This document shows, piece after piece, positions 28,584-42,205 of a stretch of DNA of 64,000 nucleotides. The stretch lies in the NCBI GenBank assembly GCA_011911785.1, contig GCA_011911785.1_4084.1, one strand, 5' to 3'. Source of the DNA: a phage. The notes beneath the pieces are model-generated. The model was not told where the DNA came from, searched no databases, and worked only from the letters and a program-made list of their open reading frames with translations. The translations under genes and the position numbers were made by a program. The number at the start of each line of letters is the position of its first letter. The stretch's first letter is position 1.

Positions 28584-28600
28584 GTACTGAGGATTATCTA

Positions 28601-28804: not shown

Positions 28805-28811
28805 AAAAGTA

Positions 28812-28840
28812 CTTGCAATTAGTTTTCAGTACTGTATAAT
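28812..28840 (+). promoter_or_regulatory. Type-B early promoter CTTGCA-17-TGTATAAT; 5' stem-loop at 28854-28871
   Basis: Read directly. Confidence 0.6.
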
Positions 28841-28890
28841 AGTTTACATCAAGGGGAGAAATGGTTCTCCCTGGTAATGAGGAAAATAAA

Positions 28891-29112
28891 ATGGCTAATA
28901 TCACTACTCTTTCCCAACTTGAAGCACTGGTTAAATCTATGCGGGAACATGCCGACAATATCGGCGTAAAAGATCCAGCCGTTTGCTTCTGCGACGAATT
29001 GAATGATGATACATTGGTAATAGCAGAAGTCCAGGACGTTTCTAACTATTCATCGCGTTACACTGGCGGCGTAGCAAATAAAGGTGACTTCTGTTTATAC
29101 CTTACAAAATAA
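28891..29112 (+). CDS. Hypothetical small early protein (73 aa)
   Basis: Track start 28861 lies inside the leader hairpin; RBS GAGGA. Confidence 0.55.
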   Translation: MANITTLSQLEALVKSMREHADNIGVKDPAVCFCDELNDDTLVIAEVQDVSNYSSRYTGGVANKGDFCLYLTK

Positions 29113-29116
29113 CAAC

Positions 29117-29146
29117 GAGGGGATCAATTGATCCCCTTTCTTTTTT
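29117..29146 (+). terminator. Intrinsic terminator GGGGATC-aatt-GATCCCC + T-run
   Basis: Read directly. Confidence 0.75.
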
Positions 29147-29230
29147 CAGTACTGAATCATTTAATAGACGGATCTATGCACCCGGTGGGTTAGAGACTGT
29201 TTCGTCTTTATGTAGTAATTATACAGTACT
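29147..29230. repeat. ~80-bp repeat element (copy 3)
   Basis: Aligns with 25567-25646 and 25786-25868. Confidence 0.5.
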
Positions 29231-29357
29231 GGATGCAGTTGTCAAGAACTATTTTTCAAATACTTTTATATTAATGTACTATACAATAGTTTTTAAACGC
29301 GTATAATGTTTTACATCTAGTCGGGAATACTCCCTAGTACTAACAAAGGATATACAA

Positions 29358-29657
29358 ATGAAAACTGCAATCATCGCCCTGGCTTTATCTGTTTCCTCTT
29401 TCGCTGTTAATGCGTCGTTAGATGTACCTGGTGATAAATTCATTCAGTGCACCGTAGCAATGACCGATGAAAGTACTGGCGAGATTGTTTTAAAGGATCT
29501 GGAATTACAGCCAGAAGCATTTAAAAACGGGCCGTTCCATGAAGAAGACGAAAACGGTAGCACAACAATTTATTATGATGCAAAGAAAAAACGCGGTTCG
29601 GTCACTGTTATGGATACTGAGAAAGTAACGCATACAGGCGTTATTAACTGCCTATAA
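29358..29657 (+). CDS. Small secreted protein with signal peptide (99 aa)
   Basis: N-terminus MKTAIIALALSVSSFAVNA. Confidence 0.55.
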   Translation: MKTAIIALALSVSSFAVNASLDVPGDKFIQCTVAMTDESTGEIVLKDLELQPEAFKNGPFHEEDENGSTTIYYDAKKKRGSVTVMDTEKVTHTGVINCL

Positions 29658-29677
29658 TACATCAGTACTGAATCACT

Positions 29678-29705
29678 AGCCCACTATAAGCAGTGGGCTT
29701 TTTTG
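29678..29705 (+). terminator. Intrinsic terminator AGCCCACT-ataagc-AGTGGGCT + T-run
   Basis: Read directly; same module at 30408. Confidence 0.75.
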
Positions 29706-29752
29706 TAGTATCGTAGTACTGGAATACTTTGAAAATAGTTTTAAAAAAGTAG

Positions 29753-29780
29753 TTGACATTACCGCAAAAAGGCGTAGAAT
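29753..29780 (+). promoter_or_regulatory. Early promoter TTGACA-16-TAGAAT with ~120-nt leader
   Basis: Leader is a diverged copy of the 27808-type element. Confidence 0.5.
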
Positions 29781-29903
29781 GTATTACATCAAGACGGGGA
29801 ACACTAAGTAGACCGCCAGTAAGTCGAACGAAAAACTGGACACGTCGAGAAAACTTTGATACACTAACTAACGTAAACTAAACTTTAATTGAGGAATTAC
29901 ATA

Positions 29904-30386
29904 ATGGCTAACGTAAAATCATTCATCAAAGCACTGGTAGCAAATGAAACTAACGTAGCGGCAGAGATCCTGGCCGAACTGGATAGCGATACCATGAAAG
30001 CAGTACGCAACAATTTTAACATTGCGTACAGCGAAGCGAAAGAACTGCAAGCTAATAAAGCGGCAGCACTTGAAGCTGAGAAGGCAGCACGCGAAGCTGA
30101 ATTGCAGAAAACGATTGAAGATATTAACGCCGCCGTCGCTGGGCTTGATCTGGAAGTAGTTACCGAAATGGCACGTAAAGCCCTGGCAGCGAAATACGGG
30201 GAAGACAAGCCAGAAGTAAAAGCTAAAAAATGGATTCAGGAACGCGTGACGGTAGTACTGGATAACGGCGAGGAATACACTGTACCAGTACGCGGTAACT
30301 GCATTGCGGTAGTACTGGATGCTATCAAAGAAAGCGGATTGACTCGCGAGGAATGGATCGAAGCTCATCGCAAAGTTGAAGCATAA
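29904..30386 (+). CDS. Hypothetical Ala/Lys/Glu-rich protein (160 aa)
   Basis: RBS GAGGA; track start 29889 rejected. Confidence 0.55.
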   Translation: MANVKSFIKALVANETNVAAEILAELDSDTMKAVRNNFNIAYSEAKELQANKAAALEAEKAAREAELQKTIEDINAAVAGLDLEVVTEMARKALAAKYGEDKPEVKAKKWIQERVTVVLDNGEEYTVPVRGNCIAVVLDAIKESGLTREEWIEAHRKVEA

Positions 30387-30407
30387 CAATTAAAGTACTG
30401 AATCACT

Positions 30408-30435
30408 AGCCCACCTTAAACAGTGGGCTTTTTTG
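30408..30435 (+). terminator. Intrinsic terminator AGCCCAC..GTGGGCT + T-run
   Basis: Read directly. Confidence 0.7.
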
Positions 30436-30661
30436 TGTCTATCGTTTACCAGGCCAGCAGCACCGCCTAGAATCGATTCTAACGCATTAAACTGATTATC
30501 TGATGCATCGCCCTAGCTGGTGGCGTTAAGGTCGTTAGAATGCGATTGAGGACGTTTAAAGTATTTTGCAAAAAGTAATAAAAAGTACTTGCACGATTAA
30601 GAGATTAGCGTATAATTAATTTCATCAAGGCGAGACACCTTAACTAACTGAGGATATAAAG

Positions 30662-30814
30662 ATGAATACTTATGAACTGGATTGTTTCACTTTACAAGTA
30701 ATGTCAGTATGCAGCAAGAAAGATTGGTCATCAAAGGAATTTAAAGCAGTTATCGCGTGTGCAAAACACGGCAAGACTATCAATGAAACGGCATCAATCA
30801 TTGATAAACTTTAA
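30662..30814 (+). CDS. Hypothetical small protein (50 aa), not in ORF track
   Basis: Promoter CTTGCA-17-TATAAT upstream; RBS GAGGA; hand-translated. Confidence 0.4.
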   Translation: MNTYELDCFTLQVMSVCSKKDWSSKEFKAVIACAKHGKTINETASIIDKL

Positions 30815-30885
30815 AAAATAGTTTGACAATAGTTTTAAGTACTGACATAATACATACATCAACTACTGAATAGGAATTAAAAAAA

Positions 30886-31113
30886 ATGGCTATCGTAATC
30901 ACTCGCGTAACTGGTACTACTGGCAATTCTTCTACTGTTGCTGTAATTACTAACAAGAAAGGTGCGGAACTACATTTTGCAATGTATAACTGGTCAGTTG
31001 ATGAGTTTGGTCAGTACGCTAGTGTAGAATACATTGAAACCTATCAAGTGCCGTCGATTAGTTTAACTGATTTGGGCGTTGAGCGTATCCTTTGCCTGGA
31101 TGAATTAAATTAA
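30886..31113 (+). CDS. Hypothetical small early protein (75 aa)
   Basis: Promoter TTGACA-17-CATAAT upstream. Confidence 0.55.
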   Translation: MAIVITRVTGTTGNSSTVAVITNKKGAELHFAMYNWSVDEFGQYASVEYIETYQVPSISLTDLGVERILCLDELN

Positions 31114-31198
31114 AAAAGTACTTGCAAAGTAAAACGAATAAAGTATAATACATTACATCAAGGGGAGAAATGGTTCTCCCCACTAAGAGGAAACGAAA

Positions 31199-31342
31199 AT
31201 GAAAACTTGTCAATGTGGTAAAAAATCTATTACTGGTTTAAAGCGGGGCGTTGCTCTTTGTCAGTATCACTATAATGCTCAAGTATGGGGTAAAGAGTGG
31301 GCCGACCAGGTTGAAGCAGTAAAGAAAGCAAAAAGTAAGTAA
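31199..31342 (+). CDS. Small Cys-rich protein (47 aa), not in ORF track
   Basis: Promoter + GGGGAGAA hairpin + RBS GAGGAAA; CQCG..CQYH. Confidence 0.4.
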   Translation: MKTCQCGKKSITGLKRGVALCQYHYNAQVWGKEWADQVEAVKKAKSK

Positions 31343-31433
31343 AATTATTATCACAGTACTATTGACATAGATTGATAGTACTGGCATAATAGATTTTATC
31401 AAGACAACACATATTAATTTAAGGAATACTAAA

Positions 31434-31646
31434 ATGGCTATCATTATTAAAAACAAAGTTAACAAGACTATCGTTAAACTGGCAGAAGTGAAAGAAGGTT
31501 ATAAAGTATCTTGGGAGGGTTTTTATAGGATGTTCACAGATATAGACGATGCAATCAAGTACTACACTGATACGGTTGCTGACTTTGTTCGTTCTGATGT
31601 AGTAATGGCAGTTGCACAACATAAAGCATCGAAAGAAAGTAAGTAA
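31434..31646 (+). CDS. Hypothetical small early protein (70 aa)
   Basis: Upstream cassette 31345-31433 duplicated at 31647-31737. Confidence 0.55.
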   Translation: MAIIIKNKVNKTIVKLAEVKEGYKVSWEGFYRMFTDIDDAIKYYTDTVADFVRSDVVMAVAQHKASKESK

Positions 31647-31737
31647 AAATATTATCACAGTACTATTGACATAGTTTGATAGTACTGGCATAATAGATTT
31701 TATCAAGACAACACATATTAATTTAAGGAATACTAAA

Positions 31738-32061
31738 ATGGCTAAAACTATCATTAACACCGTATCCCTGGCTGCAATCCGTGCAATCAATGTTGACGGT
31801 AAACGTTGGACTGATTCATATGGCAATACTTATCATTCTTGTCATGTAAGCGTTGAACTGGATAACGGTGTGAATGATCTGGCGGTTGAATCATTTACTT
31901 ATGGCTATGAAGATGCATATCAACAAACGGCGTTATCTCTCTTAAAGGAATCAGTAGATGGGCTTGATACTGTTGAAACCTCCCTTAATCGTTTGTGCAA
32001 TGATTTGTCTATCCCGTTGCATTGTACTGTACAGAATGTTAAACGCAAAAAAGATCTTTAA
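31738..32061 (+). CDS. Hypothetical small early protein (107 aa); paralog of 37670-37993
   Basis: Shared RWTDSxGNTYHSC..FTYGY. Confidence 0.55.
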   Translation: MAKTIINTVSLAAIRAINVDGKRWTDSYGNTYHSCHVSVELDNGVNDLAVESFTYGYEDAYQQTALSLLKESVDGLDTVETSLNRLCNDLSIPLHCTVQNVKRKKDL

Positions 32062-32141
32062 TTAGCTTTACTTTATGCAGATACTTTGATATAGTGTCTG
32101 CATAGGGGAAAGAAATTAAATTAACTTAAGAGGATAGTATA

Positions 32142-32411
32142 ATGAAAAATATCAGTACTTTAATCGATGCAGGTACGCATGTTCGTCGGTCTATGGTTGC
32201 AACCAGTACTACAAAACAAGTACCAAGCGGTTATCTTGTATTTGTACACGATGGAAAACTCCTGGAACGTTCAATCAATTTTGATGTTAAGAACAATTGT
32301 CGTTTTATTATCTTTAAGCGTGAACAATATAAAATTGATTTGCCAGCGAAGCCCATTAGCGGGGCGTACAACGTGCAATCATTGTTTGAGCGTCAACCAT
32401 ACACCTATTAA
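32142..32411 (+). CDS. Hypothetical small early protein (89 aa)
   Basis: RBS AAGAGGA; inverted repeat TGCAGATACT/AGTGTCTGCA upstream. Confidence 0.5.
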   Translation: MKNISTLIDAGTHVRRSMVATSTTKQVPSGYLVFVHDGKLLERSINFDVKNNCRFIIFKREQYKIDLPAKPISGAYNVQSLFERQPYTY

Positions 32412-32462
32412 TCAAAACATCGTTAGCGGTCGATTTAGGCCGCTAATATTGAGGATAATACC

Positions 32463-32633
32463 ATGAACGTTAATCAAGTACTGAATGAAGTTGAAAGCAT
32501 CATTAAACCTATGCAGCGTAGCGATGCTATTCCTACACCGGAAGAATGCAGACTATACGAACAATACAGCGTAGAACAAGCCCAGGCGATGGCCCGTATT
32601 CGTCCGGTTGCTAGTACTGATAAGGCGGTGTAA
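32463..32633 (+). CDS. Hypothetical small protein (56 aa), not in ORF track
   Basis: RBS GAGGA; coupled to next gene (TAATATG). Confidence 0.4.
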   Translation: MNVNQVLNEVESIIKPMQRSDAIPTPEECRLYEQYSVEQAQAMARIRPVASTDKAV

Positions 32634-32634
32634 T

Positions 32635-32844
32635 ATGCTTACTGTACAGGATAAGATCGACATCTTAAAGGTTAATATGTATGTGATTGATGCCGTACCT
32701 GGTAAAGTATTTGCATACGATGATTCTAATCGTAGTCCTTTCTATTGTAGTCATGTAGTTGGATACGTGCCGTTGGCGTATGTTATCGAAAGAGTGGTTG
32801 ATGCAGCATACAATCATTTTTTAGAAAATAATACTTGCAATTAG
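32635..32844 (+). CDS. Hypothetical small early protein (69 aa)
   Basis: Track start 32608 rejected. Confidence 0.5.
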   Translation: MLTVQDKIDILKVNMYVIDAVPGKVFAYDDSNRSPFYCSHVVGYVPLAYVIERVVDAAYNHFLENNTCN

Positions 32845-32913
32845 TTTTCAGTACTGTATAATTGTTTACATAGAGGGGGGAAATGGTTCTCCCCTGATAC
32901 TAGGAGAATCAAA

Positions 32914-33066
32914 ATGAAACAATACAACGCTCGGTTTGATGTTACTATCGGCAACGGCAAAGGTCAATTTTCTTTCAGTACTCGTCGCAGTTATACAGAA
33001 AACTTCCTGCGTAATTGTGCATTGACCGCCGCACAAATTAAACATTACTTCCAGGCTAAAAAATGA
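32914..33066 (+). CDS. Hypothetical small protein (50 aa), not in ORF track
   Basis: Promoter + hairpin + RBS AGGAG. Confidence 0.4.
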   Translation: MKQYNARFDVTIGNGKGQFSFSTRRSYTENFLRNCALTAAQIKHYFQAKK

Positions 33067-33152
33067 AATCATTGGCTTATTACAGTTCGGCGGTGATCGG
33101 TGCATTGATCGCGGCATTGTTAGTAACCTATCTATTCTTTGTGGTGATTTAA
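33063..33152 (+). CDS. Tiny hydrophobic peptide (29 aa)
   Basis: ATGA overlap with upstream stop; single TM-like segment. Confidence 0.25.
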   Translation: MKSLAYYSSAVIGALIAALLVTYLFFVVI

Positions 33153-33290
33153 ATGAATCCTAACGGTTTAATTTACAGTGCTCCTAAAACGAAAGCAGAT
33201 AAAGCGAAAGCACGTAAAGCGAAAGTAAAGGAGTACATCAAGCAAGGCATGACGCGAAAAGCAGCAGTACTAAAAGCTAAAAATAAATGA
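33153..33290 (+). CDS. Small Lys-rich basic protein (45 aa)
   Basis: TAAATG overlap; hand-translated. Confidence 0.3.
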   Translation: MNPNGLIYSAPKTKADKAKARKAKVKEYIKQGMTRKAAVLKAKNK

Positions 33291-33295
33291 AAAAA

Positions 33296-33329
33296 GTGGT
33301 TGACTTCGGTCAGCCATTTTGCTATTATA
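33296..33329 (+). promoter_or_regulatory. Type-A terminator/promoter cassette
   Basis: GTGGTTGACTTCGGTCAGCCA hairpin; -10 TATTAT; 13-nt motif follows at 33353. Confidence 0.55.
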
Positions 33330-33409
33330 TATTCATTGAGAGATAGCTCACTAGCCCACCGGGTGCGGAAGTGTAAATAAAATATATCAATCTAATAAGG
33401 AGTACTACA

Positions 33410-33592
33410 ATGTTTAAACCAATCGAACTAGCGGCATCACATATCATCGGTAAACCTGCCGTTATCATACGCCAGGAAGACGTAAACCTATGGATCATCT
33501 ATGTAGACATGAAAGAGATTGAGCGTCACGATGATTTCAAATCAGCGTCAATTGCGTATGATATGGCGTTATGTGAGTATCAAAGAGATTAA
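33410..33592 (+). CDS. Hypothetical small early protein (60 aa)
   Basis: RBS AAGGAG. Confidence 0.5.
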   Translation: MFKPIELAASHIIGKPAVIIRQEDVNLWIIYVDMKEIERHDDFKSASIAYDMALCEYQRD

Positions 33593-33691
33593 AAGTATTT
33601 TGCAAAAAGTACTTGCATTGTACTTAGAATCAAGTATAATGTTTTACATAGCAAGGGGAAACGGTTTCCCCTGGTAATAAGGAAACGAATC

Positions 33692-34033
33692 ATGACTATC
33701 TCAATTGCTCAATCTAACTTTGAAAACGAAATCATCGCCCAGGCACTGCGTTTAAATGATGGTCGGGCCGAAATTAATTACGGTTTCAATTCAGGCGGTT
33801 GTGAAAACTATCAGTACTTTGTAACGGCTGATGGCGGTGTCCTGGGAATCAATACAGTTATTGTAAACATTCAGAAAATTAATTTCAATGATCCAGACGA
33901 TAGCCAGTTTTACATTGTCGGCGTAGACGTGAACTATGAGGATGACTCACTAACTGATGATTGCACTGGTGAGAAGTTAGAAAGTGCATACGGTGAAGAT
34001 GATTATCAGTCCGGTCCAGAAGATTTCGAATAA
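33692..34033 (+). CDS. Hypothetical acidic protein (113 aa)
   Basis: Promoter cassette; RBS AAGGAAA. Confidence 0.55.
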   Translation: MTISIAQSNFENEIIAQALRLNDGRAEINYGFNSGGCENYQYFVTADGGVLGINTVIVNIQKINFNDPDDSQFYIVGVDVNYEDDSLTDDCTGEKLESAYGEDDYQSGPEDFE

Positions 34034-34128
34034 TATTAAAAAATAGTTTGACAATAGATTATAGTACTGTATAATAGTTTACATCAAGGGGAGAATAGTT
34101 CTCCCCACTAACAGAGAGAGAAAACAAA

Positions 34129-34341
34129 ATGGCTAATATCCGGTCGAAATTGAAAAATGCAAAACAAGTTTTATTTTCAGACCATGAATACTTTAATAAA
34201 GATATTACAGGAGTTACAAGTATCAAGGAAGTAAAAGAAAAAACTGGCGTTTTGTGTGATGTGCGATTGGTTGGAACATTTGGGAATAACGTGCTATATC
34301 GATGCGGTGATTATAACTTTACATTAACCATTATCGATTAA
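34129..34341 (+). CDS. Hypothetical small early protein (70 aa)
   Basis: Promoter TTGACA..TGTATAAT + hairpin upstream. Confidence 0.55.
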   Translation: MANIRSKLKNAKQVLFSDHEYFNKDITGVTSIKEVKEKTGVLCDVRLVGTFGNNVLYRCGDYNFTLTIID

Positions 34342-34423
34342 AAATATTATCACAGTACTATTGACAAAGATTGATAGTACTGGCATAATAGATTTTATCA
34401 ACTACACTACTAAGGAATTAAAA

Positions 34424-34603
34424 ATGGCTATCATCGCAAAAACTGAAATCGTTGGTCTGGATTCTATCATCATGACGTTTGAAGATCAAAAAGGGATGTA
34501 TGTAGTTTCCTATGGTGATTATGTTCGGGAGTATGAAACGGTAGACGAAGCCTTTGAAAGTTACATTCGCCAGGTGAATAAAGCATACGACGACTACCGC
34601 TAA
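34424..34603 (+). CDS. Hypothetical small early protein (59 aa)
   Basis: Upstream cassette shared with 31434 and 31738; track start 34361 rejected. Confidence 0.5.
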   Translation: MAIIAKTEIVGLDSIIMTFEDQKGMYVVSYGDYVREYETVDEAFESYIRQVNKAYDDYR

Positions 34604-34702
34604 AATATATTACCAGTACTATTAAAGATATTGACATAGTTTGATAGTACTGTATAATAAGTTTTATCAACAGTAGTTAACTTAACCTAAGAGAGAAAGA
34701 AA

Positions 34703-34846
34703 ATGATCGCACTGGATTCATTCATCGAAGCAGTACTGGCAAAAACTGGCGAAGATCTGACCGCAGAACAATACGCAATGATCGAACAATGCCAGCAAGA
34801 CGGTAAATCGGTGAAAGATACTGTTAAGATTATCCGCAAGATGTAA
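34703..34846 (+). CDS. Hypothetical small protein (47 aa), not in ORF track
   Basis: Promoter + RBS AGAGAGAAAG; terminator follows. Confidence 0.4.
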   Translation: MIALDSFIEAVLAKTGEDLTAEQYAMIEQCQQDGKSVKDTVKIIRKM

Positions 34847-34852
34847 GATTAT

Positions 34853-34882
34853 AGCCCACTGGTTAACGCTGGTGGGCTTTTT
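34853..34882 (+). terminator. Intrinsic terminator AGCCCAC..GTGGGCT + TTTT
   Basis: Read directly. Confidence 0.65.
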
Positions 34883-35024
34883 AGTATATACCTATCCGAT
34901 AGTACTACAAAATAGATTAGCTCGTTAGAATGCGTTTGAGAGCGTTTAAATAAGTACTAAAAAGTAATTGACAGTACTGAAAGATAGTATATAATATTTT
35001 ATATCTTAACTGAGGATAGAAATC

Positions 35025-35381
35025 ATGGGAATACAACACATCACGCGTACTACTGACAATGGTGAGATCACTGGTTATCAAGTACAGGGAAAAGCGTCAC
35101 AATTGCAGTACTGGTTTGAAAAACGTGGATTGATTGCACCGGATCTTGATTATGACCGTGTAGCGTTTATTGATTCTCTTTATGTTGATTCTGCTAGTCG
35201 GGGTAATGGTGAAGGCACGGAATTGATGAACGCCTTTATTGATGCCGCCGATGATTCAGATTGTATCATTTTAGAATGCGATACGGGAGAAGATAACGCC
35301 TTTAATCTTAAAGAATGGTACGAAGGTTTCGGATTCGAAGTACTGATCGATAGTGAATATCCTATCATGATTTTATCGTAG
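35025..35381 (+). CDS. Putative GNAT-family N-acetyltransferase (118 aa)
   Basis: Motif A-like VDSASRGNGEGTELM and motif B-like NAFNLKEWYEGFGF. Confidence 0.5.
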   Translation: MGIQHITRTTDNGEITGYQVQGKASQLQYWFEKRGLIAPDLDYDRVAFIDSLYVDSASRGNGEGTELMNAFIDAADDSDCIILECDTGEDNAFNLKEWYEGFGFEVLIDSEYPIMILS

Positions 35382-35469
35382 TACTAAAAAGTAATTGACA
35401 GTACTGATAGATAGTGTATAATGTTTTACATGAAGGGGAAACATCTTCCCCTACTAAGAGGAAATGAAA

Positions 35470-35658
35470 ATGGAAAACTTATCAAGTATTTTAGTACAAG
35501 ATGAATACGGCAATCCAGGAAGTGCTATCATTGTTCGGGGTAATAAGGCAACGTTTGTTATTGCTGGTGGACCTGTACAGCGTAGCATTAAAAACAATGC
35601 CGTTACTATTAATAATGTACGCTATCGCTTAGATAAAGAATTGATTCACAAACTGTAA
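35470..35658 (+). CDS. Hypothetical small early protein (62 aa)
   Basis: RBS AAGAGGA 7 nt upstream; promoter + hairpin. Confidence 0.5.
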   Translation: MENLSSILVQDEYGNPGSAIIVRGNKATFVIAGGPVQRSIKNNAVTINNVRYRLDKELIHKL

Positions 35659-35685
35659 TATTAATTTAATAGAGGATAACAATAA

Positions 35686-36009
35686 ATGTACATTCATACT
35701 ACTATCACAAAGGAAGTCCGTTGCCAGTTCGAAAGTATTCCGGGCGTATGTTTCATCACTGGTACGTTTTCCCCTGGTGATCGTGATAATCCAGTACTGT
35801 TACAATTACGCCATCCATCATGGGATAAAGCATTTGATCTACCGTTGAATGAATTCGCAACTACTGCTGAAAAGTACATTAAAAATATTCGCGAGAATGA
35901 TCGACTATTCATTAATGCTTTTAGTGATTCCGCGTTAAGCGAGATCCACGGCGTATTGGTTGCAATCATGGAATCTATGCAGAAAACTAAATTCAAACAA
36001 GGTGAATAA
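35686..36009 (+). CDS. Hypothetical small early protein (107 aa)
   Basis: RBS AGAGGA. Confidence 0.55.
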   Translation: MYIHTTITKEVRCQFESIPGVCFITGTFSPGDRDNPVLLQLRHPSWDKAFDLPLNEFATTAEKYIKNIRENDRLFINAFSDSALSEIHGVLVAIMESMQKTKFKQGE

Positions 36010-36093
36010 AAACTATTGACAATGCAATCCAGTACTGTATAATAAGTTACATGAAGGGGAGAAATGATTCTCCCCAGTACTGAGGAAAGAAAA

Positions 36094-36306
36094 ATGCAAG
36101 GTCAACTAATCGTTCGTAAATGGTCTGATACTAACGAAAAACCGTGGGATGTACAATACATCGCCCCCAATGGTGAATCCAGATATCAACCAGGTGTAAC
36201 GCATAGTACTGAGCAATTCGCCGCCGCACACCGTGAACGCCTGTTACAATCCATGCAGCAAGGCTTCGGTGAAAAATTCATCCAAGATCATTGGCTGAAA
36301 GATTAA
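36094..36306 (+). CDS. Hypothetical small early protein (70 aa)
   Basis: Track start 36064 lies in the leader hairpin; RBS GAGGAAAG. Confidence 0.55.
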   Translation: MQGQLIVRKWSDTNEKPWDVQYIAPNGESRYQPGVTHSTEQFAAAHRERLLQSMQQGFGEKFIQDHWLKD

Positions 36307-36393
36307 AAAAGTACTTGTGAAGTACTTAGAATCAAGTATAATGTTTTACATAGAGAGGGGAATAGTTCCCCTCCTAACAAAAAGGAAAGTAAC

Positions 36394-36567
36394 ATGATCC
36401 AAGTAGAATTGACAGTACTGAAAGATCTGTTTTATCGGATGGGTACTACTGGCGAATATCCGAAAGGTGATACCGCAAAACTTTACGTATCGCTGGATGT
36501 ATGGCAACGCGAACAATTAGCAACGGCCTGGCGTAAAGGCAAAGCAGATCGCGAGGTGCAAGCATGA
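36394..36567 (+). CDS. Hypothetical small protein (57 aa), not in ORF track
   Basis: Promoter + hairpin + RBS AAAGGAAAG. Confidence 0.4.
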   Translation: MIQVELTVLKDLFYRMGTTGEYPKGDTAKLYVSLDVWQREQLATAWRKGKADREVQA

Positions 36568-36713
36568 AAGAATACTTATTCGAAGTTACATTTTTGGGGC
36601 AAGGTATGCACCAACTAGTAAGATCCAGCGGTTATAGTCTTAACCAGGCATGGAATAACTTAAAGAAAATGTACCCTAACGCTATCACATATCGCAACCC
36701 AAAAGAAGTTTAA
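36564..36713 (+). CDS. Hypothetical small protein (49 aa), not in ORF track
   Basis: ATGA overlap with upstream gene. Confidence 0.35.
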   Translation: MKEYLFEVTFLGQGMHQLVRSSGYSLNQAWNNLKKMYPNAITYRNPKEV

Positions 36714-36727
36714 AAATAATTGAAAAA

Positions 36728-36760
36728 GGGATTGACTCCGGTCAGTCCCTTTGCTATTAT
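36728..36760 (+). promoter_or_regulatory. Type-A terminator/promoter cassette
   Basis: GGGATTGACTCCGGTCAGTCCC hairpin; -10 TATTAT; motif GCCCACAGGGTGC at 36781. Confidence 0.6.
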
Positions 36761-36894
36761 ATACGCATAGAAACAAATCAGCCCACAGGGTGCATAAATG
36801 TATCTATTATATGCTGGTGGACGTATTATCTAGTACTGAAAACTATTATAAAAAAGTACTTGCATTGTACTTAGAATCAAGTATAATGTTTTAC

Positions 36895-36970
36895 ATCAGG
36901 ACGGGGAATGAAACAAGTAACCCCGTTAAGTAGTCCAGGAGTAAGACATAAGAAAACCTCCCCTGATAAA
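36895..36970 (+). other. Conserved ~76-nt structured leader element (copy 2)
   Basis: About 85% identical to 27808-27883; lies between promoter at 36858-36887 and promoter at 36976. Confidence 0.35.
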
Positions 36971-36975
36971 ATAGT

Positions 36976-37003
36976 TTGACAATAGAAAGTAAACGAGTAT
37001 AAT
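36976..37003 (+). promoter_or_regulatory. Early promoter TTGACA-16-TATAAT
   Basis: Read directly. Confidence 0.6.
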
Positions 37004-37035
37004 ACTTACATCAACCACTGATAAGGAAACATAAA

Positions 37036-37311
37036 ATGCGGATTCTACTGACAGCTAACGAAATCGAACAAGTACTGACTACTAACCTGCAAGACTGGAA
37101 ACGTGAAGCAGATATCCAGGCGGTTCAATGGCTTAACGATAAGTTAACGCCGGATGACTTAAGCAAGATTGTAGATCCTCAATTCTATGAAGATATTCAC
37201 GACACCGCGTTAAGCGTCGAGGATGTACTTGATAAGCACTACATTGATATTGATTTGCAGGTTTACGGTCGTAAAAACTTTATCACTATTCACGACATTT
37301 ACAATAATTAA
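37036..37311 (+). CDS. Hypothetical small early protein (91 aa)
   Basis: RBS AAGGAAA. Confidence 0.55.
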   Translation: MRILLTANEIEQVLTTNLQDWKREADIQAVQWLNDKLTPDDLSKIVDPQFYEDIHDTALSVEDVLDKHYIDIDLQVYGRKNFITIHDIYNN

Positions 37312-37314
37312 GTA

Positions 37315-37342
37315 TTGACAAAGTATCTTAGTACTGTATAAT
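37315..37342 (+). promoter_or_regulatory. Early promoter TTGACA-16-TGTATAAT; 5' stem-loop at 37357-37375; cassette duplicated at 37573-37640
   Basis: Read directly. Confidence 0.6.
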
Positions 37343-37398
37343 AGTTTACATCAAGTGAGGGGAATGGTTCCCCTCCTAACTAAAAGAGAGAAATAAAA

Positions 37399-37581
37399 AT
37401 GGCTAAGTGCACTATCTGTAAGAAAGAAATCGTATTAGTTCCAAGTGCCCGTGAACGTGCCGCTCGGTTCGGTGGCAAAGCGTCAGACTATACAAAAATG
37501 TTTACTACCCATGCAGATTGCCAGGTAGCAAAACGTTCACAAGAAAGCGTAGAATTAATGCGTAAACTTTCCAGAAAATAA
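37399..37581 (+). CDS. Small Cys-containing protein (60 aa)
   Basis: CTICKK..HADC; start ATGGCT. Confidence 0.5.
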   Translation: MAKCTICKKEIVLVPSARERAARFGGKASDYTKMFTTHADCQVAKRSQESVELMRKLSRK

Positions 37582-37669
37582 GTATTGACAAAGTATCTTA
37601 GTACTGTATAATAGTTTACATCGAGTGAGGGGAAACGGTTCCCCTCCTAACAAAGAGAGAGAAATAAAA

Positions 37670-37993
37670 ATGGCTATGATCCTCACCCAGAAAGTAGAAC
37701 TGAAAATTGTAACCTCCTTTGACATTAAAGTTAATCGGTGGACTGATTCACACGGCAATACTTACCACTCTTGCTACGTGTCTGCTTTGATTGGTGATCG
37801 CTGGGAGGATTTAGGACATGAAACCTTTACTTACGGTTACGGCACACAAGGCGAATACACAGGCTTGGAGATCATTAAAGAAACCGTTATAGGTTTCAAC
37901 CCGAAAGAAAAAGTTATTCATCAAATAGAAAAAGAGATCAACAAAGAAATAACAGTTCGATACTACGATGTAAAACGTAAGAAAGACATGTAA
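37670..37993 (+). CDS. Hypothetical small early protein (107 aa); paralog of 31738-32061
   Basis: Track start 37625 rejected. Confidence 0.55.
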   Translation: MAMILTQKVELKIVTSFDIKVNRWTDSHGNTYHSCYVSALIGDRWEDLGHETFTYGYGTQGEYTGLEIIKETVIGFNPKEKVIHQIEKEINKEITVRYYDVKRKKDM

Positions 37994-38015
37994 TAGAATC
38001 CATTTAAAGTACTAT

Positions 38016-38044
38016 TTGACATTGCCCAGATAGTACTTTATAAT
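38016..38044 (+). promoter_or_regulatory. Early promoter TTGACA-17-TATAAT
   Basis: Degenerate copy precedes paralog gene at 26940. Confidence 0.55.
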
Positions 38045-38092
38045 AGACTCTAGCTTGTAGTACTAATTAACTTAACTAATAGGATGTATACC

Positions 38093-38488
38093 ATGATTAC
38101 TAAATTCTACGCTACCCGTGAAGCTGCCCGTATTGTTGCACGCGAGGAAGGAGCAGCATTTAAAGACATGGGCACGACCGCACCGAAAGGCCAACGCTGG
38201 GCCGTACAGTTCAAAGAAATCTCTGATATTGTGCATTCACCTGAGCCAGTACTAACAGCAGCAGAACTAAAACGAGCGGATATGCTGGCGGCAGTACTTA
38301 ACGCACAAGATGAGTTTATCGCTGGTTCTGATATCAAAGTACAGGTAAATGCTAATGCATGGACTCACGCGGATCACCTGGCTAACCTGAAGCGTCCAAG
38401 TGAACTGGTTCGCAACCAAAAAGAGATCCGTCATGATCGTAAGGGTAATCGTGTAACAGTATACAGTAAACGCCGCCAGGTTATCTAA
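38093..38488 (+). CDS. Hypothetical early protein (131 aa); paralog of 26940-27206
   Basis: RBS AGGA 8 nt upstream. Confidence 0.55.
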   Translation: MITKFYATREAARIVAREEGAAFKDMGTTAPKGQRWAVQFKEISDIVHSPEPVLTAAELKRADMLAAVLNAQDEFIAGSDIKVQVNANAWTHADHLANLKRPSELVRNQKEIRHDRKGNRVTVYSKRRQVI

Positions 38489-38510
38489 TAACTTGCAGTA
38501 CTAACAACAC

Positions 38511-38535
38511 GGCGGGATCAGTTCCCGCCTTTTTT
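38511..38535 (+). terminator. Intrinsic terminator GGCGGGA-tcagt-TCCCGCC + TTTTTT
   Basis: Read directly. Confidence 0.8.
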
Positions 38536-38550
38536 ATAGGATAAACTAAA

Positions 38551-38805
38551 ATGATTAAGGTTCAACTATCAAAAGATAATATCTTGCGGGTACACTATAA
38601 AGCACCACAGAGAATCATCACAAAGGCCGTACAGCTTGCTAATGAGTTTATTAATGGTAATCTATTGCCCAGGAAGTTAAGCAACGGCAAACTGCGTGTA
38701 ATCGATGTAGACACTAACAACAGAATAGTAATCGAGAATACAGGAAAGATAAACCTATATGAACACCAACAATATAATAAGAAAATAAAACTAATATCAC
38801 GTTGA
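38551..38805 (+). CDS. Hypothetical small early protein (84 aa)
   Basis: RBS AGGA. Confidence 0.5.
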   Translation: MIKVQLSKDNILRVHYKAPQRIITKAVQLANEFINGNLLPRKLSNGKLRVIDVDTNNRIVIENTGKINLYEHQQYNKKIKLISR

Positions 38806-38858
38806 CAGTACTCAATTGTTTTAGTACTATGTATCTATACCAACACGGGAGAAACAAA

Positions 38859-39077
38859 ATGAAATTATCTAAAATCGAAAAGAAAACTATTGATGAAGCA
38901 GTTAAGCACGGTTATACCTTTCGTAATGATTCACATTTTACCAATTTTCAACAAGGGTATCGTACTATTAAAAAACTTATTGACAAAGGTTTATTAGTTG
39001 AAGTCAATAACGGTAACGGTATCGAGTATCAACCAACACAAGACGCATTATCTTTAAAGAAATATGCAATTATCTAA
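38859..39077 (+). CDS. Hypothetical small early protein (72 aa)
   Basis: Promoter TTGACA-17-TACTAT duplicated at 39080; track start 38802 rejected. Confidence 0.5.
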   Translation: MKLSKIEKKTIDEAVKHGYTFRNDSHFTNFQQGYRTIKKLIDKGLLVEVNNGNGIEYQPTQDALSLKKYAII

Positions 39078-39142
39078 TTGACAGTACTCAATTGTTTTAG
39101 TACTATATGTACATACCAACACGGAATAACTGGAGAAACAAA

Positions 39143-39370
39143 ATGATTAATATCTTAGAACGCATCAAAGAAACTACTACGCTGGTGGATCTACTCAATG
39201 TACTGACTTTTAAAGTAACTCGGTTTAGTACTCCTGAATTTATCAACCTCATTGATAGTAAAGGTGAATACCGCATCACTATTGAAAATGGTCGTGCTAA
39301 TGTATTCAGTACTAAATCAGGTAAAACCGCAATTCATTCAGTAATTGCAAATAAAACTGTTGCAATCTAA
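39143..39370 (+). CDS. Hypothetical small early protein (75 aa)
   Basis: RBS GGAG; track start 39107 rejected. Confidence 0.5.
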   Translation: MINILERIKETTTLVDLLNVLTFKVTRFSTPEFINLIDSKGEYRITIENGRANVFSTKSGKTAIHSVIANKTVAI

Positions 39371-39439
39371 TTAGTACTAACATATAATAGTCACATCAAG
39401 GCAGGGAATACCTCCCTGCTATCTTAAAGAGTAAATGCA

Positions 39440-40024
39440 ATGCGTAATTATACTAAATTCATCCGTACACTGGCAGAAATGGAAACTAATAAAGAGATCC
39501 TTACAGCTTGTCGGTTGGCTGGTCTGGAGATCATCGGGGCCGGATCATCCCGTATCGTATTCGCTTTAAATGATCGGTTAGTGATTAAGGTCGCTAATTG
39601 TGACGCTGGCGTAGAACAAAATGAAACAGAATGTAAGGTATGGAATTTTTTAGATTATGACCGCCCTCACCTTAAACAGTACTTTGCTAAGGTGCATATG
39701 CATTTAAGCGATCCTGATAATATGTTTATTGTTATGGATCGTTTGAGTACTGCAAGCAAAGGCAGTGTAAAGCACGTTAACGCTTGCAATGAATTAAAGT
39801 ACAATGTCAAACGTAACACTATTGAACGCCAACACCATTTCGCTGATGCACTACAACACGTTGATGATACCTTATCAACACTAACGATAAGAGATATCAG
39901 AAAGCAGAACATAGGCCAAGATCGCAATGGCCTGATTAAAGTACTTGATTACGGTTTAACCCGCAATATCTGGAATCAGTACTATAAACAACGCGACGTA
40001 AAAGCCGTAACTATAACACGATAA
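39440..40024 (+). CDS. Putative protein kinase-like protein (194 aa)
   Basis: Gly-loop IGAGSSRIV, Lys in VIKV, catalytic-loop-like RDIRKQN, DYG in place of DFG. Confidence 0.5.
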   Translation: MRNYTKFIRTLAEMETNKEILTACRLAGLEIIGAGSSRIVFALNDRLVIKVANCDAGVEQNETECKVWNFLDYDRPHLKQYFAKVHMHLSDPDNMFIVMDRLSTASKGSVKHVNACNELKYNVKRNTIERQHHFADALQHVDDTLSTLTIRDIRKQNIGQDRNGLIKVLDYGLTRNIWNQYYKQRDVKAVTITR

Positions 40025-40038
40025 AAAAGATTAAAAAA

Positions 40039-40071
40039 GGGATTGACTCCAGTCAGTCCCTTTGCTATTAT
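40039..40071 (+). promoter_or_regulatory. Type-A terminator/promoter cassette
   Basis: GGGATTGACTCCAGTCAGTCCC hairpin; -10 TATTAT; motif variant at 40097. Confidence 0.6.
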
Positions 40072-40248
40072 ATAGTCATTGAGAGATAACTCACTGACCC
40101 ATAGGGTGCATAAGTGTATCTATAATATAAGTATTGTCAGTACTGAAAACTATTTTTAAAAAGTACTTGCATTGTACTTAGATTCAAGTATAATGTTTTA
40201 CATAGAGAGGGGGAAATAGTTCTCCCTCAAAGAATAAGGAATAAAATC

Positions 40249-40470
40249 ATGACTACAATGACTTGCATTTACGCTTCCAATCTTCTGAATGATGCGGCCT
40301 TTAATGTTGATTCAGAATATCAATGTTATCGGGATGAAAATAAAAAAGTTTTTGTAGTTGATAATAATGGTTTCCATATTGAATTACAATCCGGCTTCAC
40401 TGGTGTTGATGGTAAATCAGTATGGGGCGTTCAGGATGATAAAGGCACATATCATTTTAAACGTAATTAA
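40249..40470 (+). CDS. Hypothetical small early protein (73 aa)
   Basis: Promoter + hairpin + RBS AAGGAAT. Confidence 0.55.
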   Translation: MTTMTCIYASNLLNDAAFNVDSEYQCYRDENKKVFVVDNNGFHIELQSGFTGVDGKSVWGVQDDKGTYHFKRN

Positions 40471-40553
40471 GTATTGACAAAGTATATCAGTACTGTATAA
40501 TAGTTTACATCAAGGGGAGAATAGTTCTCCCCGATACTAAAAGGAATAAAATC

Positions 40554-40961
40554 ATGACTACTACTAATCAAGCTCGGTCCATCACCAACGATAAAAATCA
40601 TGCTGCAATGGTCGCTGGTTACATTGAAGCTATGCAATTCAGTACTGTACACAATGAGAACGGCGACTACCTGGAAGATTATGAATTATCAGAGCAAGCC
40701 CATCAAGCGGCAGTGATTGCATGTTCTCGTTTCCTTGAGAAGTTTAGTAATGAAATGGAAGCAGTACAAAAACACCATAATCCTGATTATACTTATAGTC
40801 ATGCAGGTCATGATCTCTTTCTTACCCGCGAAGGTCACGGTACTGGCTTTTGGGATCGTGATATCGGTCACTATGACGATGTATTCACTAAGTACTGCGA
40901 AGAAATCAACGTTTGCGATCCCTATGTAGGCGATGATAATCTAATCTATATGGGCGAATAA
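40554..40961 (+). CDS. Hypothetical His-rich early protein (135 aa)
   Basis: HAGHDLFLTREGHGTGFWDRDIGH; promoter cassette. Confidence 0.55.
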   Translation: MTTTNQARSITNDKNHAAMVAGYIEAMQFSTVHNENGDYLEDYELSEQAHQAAVIACSRFLEKFSNEMEAVQKHHNPDYTYSHAGHDLFLTREGHGTGFWDRDIGHYDDVFTKYCEEINVCDPYVGDDNLIYMGE

Positions 40962-41048
40962 AAGTATTTGACAAAGCATATCAGTACTGTATAATAGTTT
41001 ACATCAAGGGGAGAATAGTTCTCCCCACTACTAAAAGGAAACAAAATT

Positions 41049-41321
41049 ATGTCTAGCTACTCCGCTACTATGATCATCAAAGATATGAACGGTAATCCTA
41101 CTTCCGCTGGTGGATCATTTGGAAACATTAACTTAGATGGTCGGTTATCAATGGAATCAGCCATCAATGCAGCGAAAGAAGTTTTTAAGAATGAATGTAC
41201 TGTAAGCAAGCTGGATTATATGGGCTTCGCTATCGAGAAAACTAAACGTTTTGTGGACTACAAAAATCCACTGATGATTGATACTAACCTGAAAGCTAAC
41301 GAAGTGGAATACTTATTATGA
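41049..41321 (+). CDS. Hypothetical small early protein (90 aa)
   Basis: Promoter cassette; RBS AAGGAAA. Confidence 0.55.
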   Translation: MSSYSATMIIKDMNGNPTSAGGSFGNINLDGRLSMESAINAAKEVFKNECTVSKLDYMGFAIEKTKRFVDYKNPLMIDTNLKANEVEYLL

Positions 41322-41509
41322 CAGTTGATGAAGTTAAAAAAGTACTGGCAGTACTACGCTATCATAATCATTGTAAGGTTAAGAATGATCCTGATTATGT
41401 TGATTCATCCCTGGAGGAAGACACCTTAAACGCGATAAGCCATATGCAAACATTAGCAAAGCGTATGACCGAAAAGAATAGGCCGGACTATATCGGAAAT
41501 AAAATTTAA
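41318..41509 (+). CDS. Hypothetical small early protein (63 aa)
   Basis: ATGA overlap. Confidence 0.5.
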   Translation: MTVDEVKKVLAVLRYHNHCKVKNDPDYVDSSLEEDTLNAISHMQTLAKRMTEKNRPDYIGNKI

Positions 41510-41596
41510 AAAGTACTTGCATTGTAGTTAGATTAACGTATAATGTTTTATATCGAGAGGGGGAAATGGTTTCCCCTCAAGTCCAGGAGATACACC

Positions 41597-42153: not shown

Positions 42154-42205
42154 CAATAAAAGGGGATGATAATATCCCCTTAATAATTTCTATAATAGGT
42201 TAACA

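What the first reader, a model, noticed from the sequence alone, without database searches (positions are those of the whole stretch)
35025..35381. Minimal GNAT-like acetyltransferase among early genes
The 118-aa protein carries R-G-x-G-x-G (SRGNGEG) and N-x-x-A-x-x-x-Y-x-x-x-G-F (NAFNLKEWYEGFGF) in the arrangement of GNAT motifs A and B. Small GNATs in mobile elements include tRNA-acetylating toxins; its own promoter and a 47-aa gene upstream (34703-34846) make a toxin-antitoxin-like or host-modifying role worth testing.
Basis: inference. Interest (0 to 1): 0.45.

Follow-up and report, generated by a model that had tools for sequence, protein, structure and literature searches.

The report
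Small phage acetyltransferase, not a toxin
The 118-residue gene is a real, stripped-down GNAT acetyltransferase carried as an optional early-gene cassette by a jumbo E. coli phage; relatives are already annotated as acetyltransferases, it most likely acetylates a host protein, and nothing supports a toxin-antitoxin pairing with the small upstream gene.

Summary

The window comes from an Asteriusvirus jumbo coliphage (121Q/PBECO4/phAPEC6 group). The gene lies in the ~21-kb terminal-repeat region, behind its own perfect sigma-70 consensus promoter. Orthologues at about 94% identity are already annotated "GNAT family N-acetyltransferase".

The toxin-antitoxin reading is not supported:
- The 47-aa gene has its own promoter and terminator.
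- It lies 627-960 nt from the GNAT, with further genes between, in the 21 other phage records where the distance could be measured.
- It occurs without the GNAT in 18 records.
- It is a three-helix protein with no antitoxin domain.

The GNAT lacks the alpha1-alpha2 arm. Its closest solved structure of comparable size is the anti-CRISPR acetyltransferase AcrVA5. It belongs to a strongly acidic family of 118-140-aa phage GNATs, which also occur fused to ADP-ribosyltransferase, ParB, NUDIX and amidoligase domains in polyvalent proteins.

Most likely it acetylates a host or defence protein early in infection. The target is unknown.

The parts
34954..34995 (+). Promoter of the GNAT gene: -35 TTGACA at 34968-34973, 16-nt spacer, -10 TATAAT at 34990-34995. 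It lies inside a 42-nt repeat that forms the left boundary of the GNAT cassette.
   Evidence: 12/12 consensus match. The 42-nt repeat recurs at 35381-35422 with 2 mismatches, 0 expected by chance. It is conserved in 121Q, phAPEC6, CRJP21 and vB_Ec-M-J.
35012..35016 (+). Shine-Dalgarno sequence GAGGA, 8 nt upstream of the ATG. The in-frame stop TAA at 35007-35009 excludes a longer N-terminus.
   Evidence: Read directly; conserved across the phages aligned.
35025..35381 (+). Coding sequence of the 118-aa minimal GNAT N-acetyltransferase (stop codon included).
35199..35216 (+). GNAT motif A, the pyrophosphate-binding loop R59-G60-N61-G62-E63-G64 (R/Q-x-x-G-x-G/A) between strand 45-54 and helix 63-74.
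   Evidence: Pfam alignment region. G64 is invariant, and R59 and G62 are nearly invariant, in the family alignments. Secondary structure.
35280..35336 (+). Acidic loop and motif B: D86-T-G-E89-D-N91-A-F93-N-L95-K-E-W98-Y99-E-G101-F-G103-F104. Y99 sits where GNATs usually have the catalytic tyrosine.
   Evidence: D86, L95, W98, Y99, G103 and F104 are invariant in 36 family members. The tyrosine's role is inferred from general GNAT knowledge.
35381..35422 (+). Second copy of the 42-nt promoter repeat. It is the promoter of the next gene (35464-35658) and the right boundary of the GNAT cassette.
   Evidence: PBECO4 lacks exactly the stretch 34958-35385.
34949..34958 (.). Junction where this phage lacks the ~785-nt segment (three genes in 121Q, including a DksA-like zinc-finger gene) that separates the 47-aa gene from the GNAT in relatives.
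   Evidence: BLAST breakpoints against 121Q, phAPEC6, vB_Ec-M-J and CRJP21; annotations.
34631..34878 (+). Neighbouring, independent transcription unit, not part of the GNAT function: promoter 34631-34658, 47-aa gene 34703-34846, intrinsic terminator 34853-34878.

Best explanation
This is a solo, minimal GNAT-fold, acetyl-CoA-dependent N-acetyltransferase, carried as an optional one-gene cassette (promoter plus gene) in the terminal-repeat early region of an Asteriusvirus jumbo coliphage.

Shown here: it is a real, selected gene. It has an intact acetyl-CoA-binding core (strand 45-54, R-x-x-G-x-G loop, helix 63-74, strand 80-84, W98-Y99 helix). It lacks the alpha1-alpha2 substrate-binding arm, so its size and layout resemble the anti-CRISPR acetyltransferase AcrVA5. 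It has its own consensus sigma-70 promoter. It belongs to a phage-borne, strongly acidic family that also occurs as a domain of polyvalent proteins, next to ADP-ribosyltransferase domains.

Inferred: host RNA polymerase transcribes it immediately after DNA entry. The enzyme then transfers an acetyl group from acetyl-CoA to an amino group (lysine side chain or N-terminus) of a basic host protein, such as a defence, transcription, translation or nucleoid protein, to help takeover or counter-defence. The target is unknown. It is not one half of a toxin-antitoxin pair with the 47-aa gene.
For: - AcrVA5-like minimal layout: 6iuf aligns over 90 of its 95 residues. The model has a beta-hairpin plus one helix in place of beta1-alpha1-alpha2-beta2-beta3. 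An experimentally validated AcrVA5-like Cas12a inhibitor, AcrVA5Bsp (PMC10799925), aligns to the family profile over 109 columns, E 1.7e-4.
- Real gene: dN/dS 0.05-0.22.
- Catalytic motifs conserved: G64, D86, W98 and Y99 are invariant across 36 diverse members.
- Family: 279 cluster representatives at E<=1e-3, mostly 118-140 aa and aligned over full length. Every genomic context examined was phage-like.
- Fusions: GNAT + ART-PolyVal + NUDIX (P0067, 2284 aa), GNAT + PARP-type ART + ParB_N (P0028), Amidoligase_2 + GNAT (P0043), DUF5661. This matches the ART-neighbouring GNAT family that Iyer et al. 2017 described in polyvalent proteins and predicted to act on proteins (PMC5512222).
- Charge: family median net charge -13, this protein -16, AcrVA5 -14.
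- Early expression: perfect promoter conserved in five phages. The gene lies inside the stretch colinear with the confirmed fEgEco12 terminal repeat, where all 15 perfect promoters sit (PMC13070987).
- Accessory cassette: absent from PBECO4, G17, Sharanji and others, with breakpoints at the promoter repeats.
Against: - No biochemical or transcript evidence exists for this protein or any close relative, and no substrate is known for any family member.
- Structural similarity to AcrVA5 does not transfer its function. E. coli does not normally carry Cas12a (my own knowledge, not tested here). Sequence similarity to AcrVA5 itself is weak (hhalign E 0.006, probability 6%), and the match to AcrVA5Bsp is borderline (probability 50%).
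- PADLOC gives no hit, although that library holds defence rather than anti-defence proteins.
- The gene is dispensable for many sister phages, so any role is conditional.
- This protein has Y29 where at least 90% of family members have N.
Confidence: 0.55

Rival explanations
1. Toxin-antitoxin module: the GNAT is a TacT/AtaT-like toxin that acetylates aminoacyl-tRNA, and the 47-aa upstream protein is its antitoxin.
For: It is a small GNAT next to a small upstream ORF on the same strand in a mobile element. GNAT toxins are a known family (PMC9177977).
Against: - A terminator and a separate promoter lie between the two genes.
- The two genes are 627-960 nt apart in the 21 other records where the distance could be measured, with intervening genes where annotation was read. 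Eighteen records have the 47-aa gene without the GNAT and three have the reverse.
- The 47-aa protein has no DUF1778 or DUF4065 match and no ribbon-helix-helix fold.
Confidence: 0.03
2. Small-molecule acetyltransferase: the enzyme acetylates a metabolite, polyamine, antibiotic-like compound or nucleotide-derived signal rather than a protein.
Against: - All those matches cover only the acetyl-CoA-binding half and lie far below the family cut-offs.
- The alpha1-alpha2 arm that usually forms a small-molecule pocket is missing.
- The family is fused to protein- and nucleic-acid-modifying domains in polyvalent proteins, and its closest same-sized structural analogue acts on proteins (PMC5512222).
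Confidence: 0.2
3. Antitoxin-less host-shutoff enzyme acting on aminoacyl-tRNA or another RNA, used by the lytic phage to stop host translation.
For: GNAT toxins show that the superfamily can acetylate aminoacyl-tRNA (PMC9177977). A lytic phage would need no antitoxin. The promoter is a strong early type.
Against: The protein has strongly acidic net charge and no specific similarity to GNAT toxins. The phage itself depends on host translation.
Confidence: 0.07
4. Non-catalytic GNAT-fold protein that acts only by binding a target.
For: The architecture is very reduced. This protein departs from the family at a nearly invariant position (Y29 instead of N). AcrVA5 is reported to bind Cas2 directly as well as acetylating it (PMC11021501).
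Against: Motif A and the W-Y motif are intact and invariant across the family, which is unexpected for a pseudoenzyme. Selection is purifying.
Confidence: 0.05

Closest known systems
Orthologues in other Asteriusvirus phages (for example 121Q gp295, fEgEco12 g031, vB_Ec-M-J EcMJ_030), annotated 'acetyltransferase' or 'GNAT family N-acetyltransferase'
   Same: 81-95% amino-acid identity (the 81% copy, in CMSTMSU, is split into three pieces). The intact copies have the same length (118 aa); the same promoter and leader were checked in four phages, and the same position in the terminal repeat in fEgEco12 and vB_Ec-M-J.
   Different: In this window the three genes normally lying between the 47-aa gene and the GNAT are missing. 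Seven to eleven residues differ. None of these proteins has been studied experimentally, as far as the held literature shows.
GNAT domain of phage polyvalent proteins with an adjacent ADP-ribosyltransferase (Iyer et al. 2017, J Bacteriol, PMC5512222)
   Same: Full-length homologues of the window protein occur inside large proteins beside ART-PolyVal, PARP-type ART, ParB_N, NUDIX and Amidoligase_2 domains. Solo versions occur in phages, as that paper describes.
   Different: This copy is a stand-alone gene, expressed from a promoter rather than delivered as part of an injected giant protein. I could not compare it directly with the accessions used in that paper, so identity of the two families is inferred from the shared architecture.
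AcrVA5 (PDB 6IUF) and AcrVA5Bsp, anti-CRISPR acetyltransferases that inactivate Cas12a
   Different: Sequence similarity is marginal. The window protein has an extra helix (residues 24-33) and linker. The host is E. coli, where Cas12a is not expected (my own knowledge), so any target would differ.
[quoted passage not shown]
   Same: A phage-encoded GNAT that modifies host proteins during takeover.
   Different: Rac is 157 aa with a full-size GNAT and lies next to the late genes. hhalign aligns only 23 columns around motif A, E 0.015. It is not the same family.
Type II GNAT toxins (TacT, AtaT, ItaT, KacT) with DUF1778 antitoxins
   Same: GNAT superfamily; acetyl-CoA dependent.
   Different: They differ in size, partner gene, operon structure, charge and co-occurrence (see the membership test).

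Membership tests
GNAT superfamily (Pfam Acetyltransf_1 and relatives) | Profile match above the curated cut-off | tested here: met
   PF00583 36.7 bits against 20.7; PF13508 30.1 against 27; PF13673 24.9 against 23.6.
GNAT superfamily (Pfam Acetyltransf_1 and relatives) | Motif A R/Q-x-x-G-x-G/A loop between beta4 and alpha3 | tested here: met
   R59-G60-N61-G62-E63-G64. G64 is invariant and R59 and G62 are nearly invariant in the family.
GNAT superfamily (Pfam Acetyltransf_1 and relatives) | Core fold beta4-alpha3-beta5-alpha4-beta6 | tested here: met
GNAT superfamily (Pfam Acetyltransf_1 and relatives) | Complete N-terminal arm beta1-alpha1-alpha2-beta2-beta3 | tested here: not met
   Only a hairpin (residues 3-9 and 13-21) and one helix (24-33) precede beta4. 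Profiles match only their C-terminal halves. The protein is therefore a 'minimal' GNAT, like AcrVA5 and YjdJ-type proteins.
GNAT superfamily (Pfam Acetyltransf_1 and relatives) | Acetyl-CoA binding and acyl transfer | not testable with these tools
   Needs biochemistry.
Type II GNAT toxin / DUF1778 antitoxin systems | Adjacent antitoxin with a DUF1778 (ribbon-helix-helix) or DUF4065 domain | tested here: not met
   The 47-aa protein matches no Pfam family at E<=10. Its model has three helices and no strand, and it has no PDB fold match.
Type II GNAT toxin / DUF1778 antitoxin systems | Toxin and antitoxin in a single operon | tested here: not met
   Terminator at 34853-34878 and a separate perfect promoter at 34968-34995 lie between the genes.
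Type II GNAT toxin / DUF1778 antitoxin systems | Conserved pairing of the two genes across genomes | tested here: not met
   Eighteen records have only the 47-aa gene and three have only the GNAT. The gap is 627-960 nt in the 21 other records carrying both where it could be measured.
Type II GNAT toxin / DUF1778 antitoxin systems | Toxin size of about 150-245 aa and specific similarity to known toxins | tested here: not met
Type II GNAT toxin / DUF1778 antitoxin systems | Growth arrest on expression, rescued by the partner | not testable with these tools
   Needs an expression experiment.
AcrVA5-type anti-CRISPR acetyltransferases | Minimal GNAT fold superposable on 6IUF | tested here: met
AcrVA5-type anti-CRISPR acetyltransferases | Demonstrable sequence homology beyond general GNAT similarity | tested here: inconclusive
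   hhalign against AcrVA5: E 0.0057, probability 6%. Against AcrVA5Bsp: E 1.7e-4, probability 50%, 109 columns. Both scores exceed all 100 shuffles, at about 3.8 and 7.2 standard deviations above the shuffle mean, but any GNAT might do the same.
AcrVA5-type anti-CRISPR acetyltransferases | Acetylates and inactivates a Cas effector of its host | not testable with these tools
   Needs biochemistry. E. coli is not expected to carry Cas12a (my own knowledge).
Polyvalent-protein GNAT family with ART neighbour (Iyer et al. 2017) | The same domain found fused beside an ADP-ribosyltransferase in large phage proteins | tested here: met
   P0067: GNAT at 578-693 plus ART-PolyVal and NUDIX. P0028: GNAT at 41-156 plus PARP-type ART and ParB_N. 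Both align with the query over residues ~9-117.
Polyvalent-protein GNAT family with ART neighbour (Iyer et al. 2017) | Solo versions encoded by phages | tested here: met
Polyvalent-protein GNAT family with ART neighbour (Iyer et al. 2017) | Direct match to the accessions listed in that paper | not tested
Rac (phiKMV-like GNAT) | Full-length homology to LUZ19 gp28 | tested here: not met
   Only 23 columns aligned, E 0.015, probability 3%.

The most novel reading that the evidence does not exclude
The protein and its 118-140-aa family are early-expressed counter-defence enzymes that work like AcrVA5, switching off a host immune or takeover-relevant protein by acetylating a key lysine. Here the enzyme would be aimed at an E. 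coli target that is not Cas12a. The solo genes and the polyvalent-protein domains would then be two ways of delivering the same weapon.
Probability: 0.2. Interest if true: 0.7.

Novelty: already known. Interest (0 to 1): 0.3.

Why it matters
As it stands, this is an ordinary gene that is already annotated: an uncharacterised phage GNAT. It still has some value. It belongs to a compact, widespread phage family with no known substrate, and its layout matches the only enzymatic anti-CRISPR acetyltransferases. The family is also built into polyvalent proteins. This copy sits in a phage of E. coli, where natural gene-present and gene-absent sister phages exist (for example 121Q or phAPEC6 against PBECO4 or G17). 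That makes the question "what do phage mini-acetyltransferases hit?" directly testable. The negative result also matters: the toxin-antitoxin idea should not be pursued.

Tried and rejected
- Toxin-antitoxin pairing: rejected on transcription-unit structure, non-conserved adjacency, independent distribution and the absence of any antitoxin domain or fold.
- PADLOC defence models: no hit for either protein.
- NCBIfam: only sub-threshold generic GNAT hits.
- The word-indexed protein search with the single sequence found only two clusters. The exhaustive HMMER search was needed to see the family.
- The search for related loci with the family alignment failed for lack of a conserved stretch.
- The genome-contig scan with the nearest non-Asteriusvirus relative (P0003) found only distant GNATs in three metagenome-assembled genomes. 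The viral-contig scan returned only 121Q itself.
- The PDB sequence and profile searches found no close solved relative.
- Rac of LUZ19 was tested as a possible relative and rejected.
- The giant neighbouring protein in locus L006 was checked for a family domain in the part held, and none was found.
- The literature search found no transcriptome or functional study of this gene in Asteriusvirus papers.
- The 47-aa protein's fold search gave nothing significant.

Full report
**What the window is.** A 1.8-kb stretch around the finding matches 39 phage records at about 91-94% nucleotide identity. Those whose records I read belong to the genus Asteriusvirus, jumbo coliphages of about 350 kb such as PBECO4, 121Q and phAPEC6. 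Window 24628-44470 is colinear with positions 141-20862 of phage fEgEco12. The 20,993-bp direct terminal repeat of fEgEco12 was identified with PhageTerm and confirmed by restriction digests (PMC13070987). In fEgEco12 and vB_Ec-M-J the orthologous gene lies inside the annotated repeat. This stretch is an array of short same-strand genes, many with their own promoter. The window holds 15 exact TTGACA-N16-TATAAT sites against 0.08 expected, and all lie between 24852 and 42844.

**Checking the observation.** The ORF 35025-35381 (+), 118 aa, exists as described.
- It cannot be longer at the N-terminus, because an in-frame TAA sits at 35007. It is preceded by GAGGA at 35012-35016.
- A 12/12 consensus promoter lies at 34968-34995. 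The promoter, leader and ribosome-binding site are conserved in four other phages.
- Pfam Acetyltransf_1 (E 5.8e-9, 36.7 bits against a 20.7-bit cut-off), Acetyltransf_7 and Acetyltransf_10 all pass their curated cut-offs. They match only residues ~42-106, which corresponds to the C-terminal half of each profile. PHROG acetyltransferase families behave the same way.
- Pairwise dN/dS against four orthologues is 0.05-0.22, so this is a protein under purifying selection.

**Structure.** An AlphaFold2 model built on 36 diverse family members is confident (pLDDT 85, pTM 0.77). Its elements are strands 3-9 and 13-21, helix 24-33, strand 45-54, helix 63-74, strand 80-84, helix 95-100, and strands 105-108 and 114-117. 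From residue 45 onward this is the canonical GNAT core, beta4-alpha3-beta5-alpha4-beta6-beta7. The usual N-terminal arm (beta1-alpha1-alpha2-beta2-beta3) is reduced to a hairpin and one helix.

I verified the AcrVA5 sequence against 6iuf. Profile comparison with the family is weak (E 0.0057). The score still exceeds all 100 shuffles of the AcrVA5 sequence. AcrVA5Bsp is a sequence-unrelated structural homologue of AcrVA5 that was shown to inhibit Cas12a (PMC10799925). It aligns to the family profile over 109 columns, nearly full length, at E 1.7e-4 and probability 50%. I treat this as a resemblance in architecture, not as proof of membership.

**The family.**
- The word-indexed search with the single sequence found only near-identical proteins. 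The exhaustive HMMER search found 279 cluster representatives at E<=1e-3, most of them 118-140 aa and aligned across the whole query.
- The alignments show invariant G64, D86, L95, W98, Y99, G103 and F104. They also show a conserved N-terminal signature, G-S-x-E-G-Y ... E-Q-L-x-N-W.
- The family is uniformly acidic: median net charge -13, this protein -16, AcrVA5 -14.
- Roughly one in eight of the listed representatives is part of a larger protein. Examples are GNAT + ART-PolyVal + NUDIX in a 2284-aa protein, GNAT + PARP-type ART + ParB_N, Amidoligase_2 + GNAT, and DUF5661 fusions.
- This is the architecture that Iyer et al. 2017 described for one of two GNAT families in phage 'polyvalent proteins'. 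They placed that family in a RimI-like, protein-modifying clade and noted solo versions (PMC5512222).
- The solo members I examined sit in phage-like contexts. None has a conserved small upstream partner.

**The toxin-antitoxin idea.**
- The 47-aa gene (34703-34846) has its own perfect promoter (34631-34658). An 11-bp-stem terminator with a T-run follows it (34853-34878), and then comes the GNAT promoter. The two genes are separate transcription units.
- Relative to 121Q, phAPEC6, vB_Ec-M-J and CRJP21, the window lacks a ~785-nt segment. In 121Q that segment carries three genes, including a DksA-like zinc-finger protein. The junction is at 34949/34958 (annotations).
- In the 21 other records that carry both genes and where the distance could be measured, the gap is 627-960 nt, against 179 nt here. 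In one further record the pair spans the record ends. Eighteen records have the 47-aa gene without the GNAT, and three have the GNAT without the 47-aa gene.
- PBECO4 lacks exactly 34958-35385, the promoter-plus-gene cassette. That cassette is flanked by a 42-nt promoter repeat at 34954-34995 and 35381-35422.
- The 47-aa protein matches no Pfam family at E<=10. It has homologues only in jumbo phages, models as three helices with pLDDT 89 and has no significant PDB fold match. It is not a ribbon-helix-helix DUF1778 antitoxin.
- The phylogeny of GNAT toxins used sequences of 150-245 aa, and toxins are encoded in one operon with DUF1778 or DUF4065 antitoxins (PMC9177977). None of these features is met here.

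I put this reading at about 3%.

**How it most likely works.** Three steps are shown. The gene is real and under selection. The acetyl-CoA-binding core is intact, with the motif-A loop and the motif-B tyrosine. The gene has a host-type strong promoter in the terminal-repeat gene array.

The other steps are inferred:
- The gene is transcribed by host RNA polymerase immediately after DNA entry.
- The enzyme uses acetyl-CoA to acetylate an amino group on a host macromolecule.
- With no alpha1-alpha2 pocket, a strongly acidic surface, AcrVA5-like architecture and kinship with polyvalent-protein domains, that macromolecule is most likely a basic protein involved in defence, transcription, translation or nucleoid structure.

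Phage precedents for this logic exist. AcrVA5 acetylates Cas12a (as stated in PMC10799925) and is reported to acetylate Cas2 (PMC11021501). [quoted passage not shown] Rac itself is not a relative: only 23 aligned columns, E 0.015. Because many sister phages lack the gene, its benefit is probably conditional on the host strain.

**Rivals.** These are a small-molecule substrate (about 0.2), antitoxin-less acetylation of aminoacyl-tRNA (about 0.07) and a non-catalytic binder (about 0.05). The evidence for and against each is in the Rival explanations section.

**Novelty and verdict.** Orthologues are already annotated as acetyltransferase or GNAT family N-acetyltransferase in 121Q, fEgEco12 and others. 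The wider family appears to have been described in silico in 2017. The identification is therefore already known. What remains unknown is the substrate. Interest is 0.3. The most novel reading still open is an AcrVA5-like counter-defence acetyltransferase with a new E. coli target. I give that about 0.2 probability and 0.7 interest if true.

Noticed in passing
window 24628-44470: This stretch is colinear with positions 141-20862 of the fEgEco12 direct terminal repeat, so the window spans a whole (collapsed) terminal-repeat copy plus unique DNA on both sides. All 15 exact TTGACA-N16-TATAAT sites of the window (14 on the + strand) fall inside it, against 0.08 expected by chance. The layout is reminiscent of the pre-early region in the terminal repeats of phage T5 (my own knowledge).
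   Followed up: partly
window 34954-34995 and 35381-35422: A 42-nt promoter-containing repeat (2 mismatches between copies) flanks the GNAT cassette. Gene presence/absence breakpoints among sister phages coincide with it. This suggests that recombination between repeated promoters shuffles single-gene cassettes in this region.
   Followed up: partly
window 33293-33330, 36725-36762, 40043-40073, 43123-43153 (+): Four copies of a conserved element, 0 expected by chance. A 12-bp-stem hairpin (AAAGGGATTGAC-TCCG-GTCAGTCCCTTT) carries a -35-like TTGACT inside its stem, with a -10-like TATTAT 17 nt downstream. It could be a combined terminator/promoter or a regulated promoter class distinct from the consensus ones.
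   Followed up: partly
window 31738-32061 and 37670-37993 (+): Two paralogous 107-aa genes of unknown function within the repeat region, 36% identical (E 7e-27). They share R-W-T-D-S-x-G-N-T-Y-H-S-C and a C-terminal VKRKKD motif.
   Followed up: partly
window 35428-35446 (+): A 7-bp hairpin (AGGGGAA-ACATC-TTCCCCT) in the 5' leader of the next gene (35464-35658), between its promoter and ribosome-binding site. The GNAT leader has no such hairpin.
   Followed up: no
window 34703-34846 (+): The 47-aa protein is a confidently predicted three-helix bundle (pLDDT 89). It is conserved at 70-98% identity in Asteriusvirus and in Salmonella and Klebsiella jumbo phages (Munch, 7t3, fENko-Kae01). It has no Pfam or PDB match, and one record mis-annotates it as 'tail fiber protein'.
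   Followed up: yes
L002 2968-3336 (Klebsiella phage 05F01, Stephanstirmvirinae): A 48%-identical homologue of the GNAT sits in a 147-kb phage of a different subfamily. phAPEC6 annotators noted rV5-like hits for neighbouring genes. This suggests exchange of early-gene cassettes between jumbo Asteriusviruses and rV5/phi92-like phages.
   Followed up: no
L006 1-8405 and L007 3-7103 (metagenomic phage contigs of 33.6 and 110.5 kb): In these contigs a 134-aa family member lies a few genes downstream of a giant (at least 1860-aa) protein with faint GNAT, PARP and DUF6886 hits. A family-B DNA polymerase, a PP-loop ATPase and a ferritin-like gene are also nearby. Solo and polyvalent forms may therefore coexist in one phage.
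   Followed up: partly
MH494197.1 120963-121313 (Escherichia phage CMSTMSU): The GNAT orthologue there matches in three pieces at 81% identity and is annotated as an 80-aa fragment (P0002). This is either a frameshifted, decaying copy or sequencing errors in an 'unverified' record.
   Followed up: no
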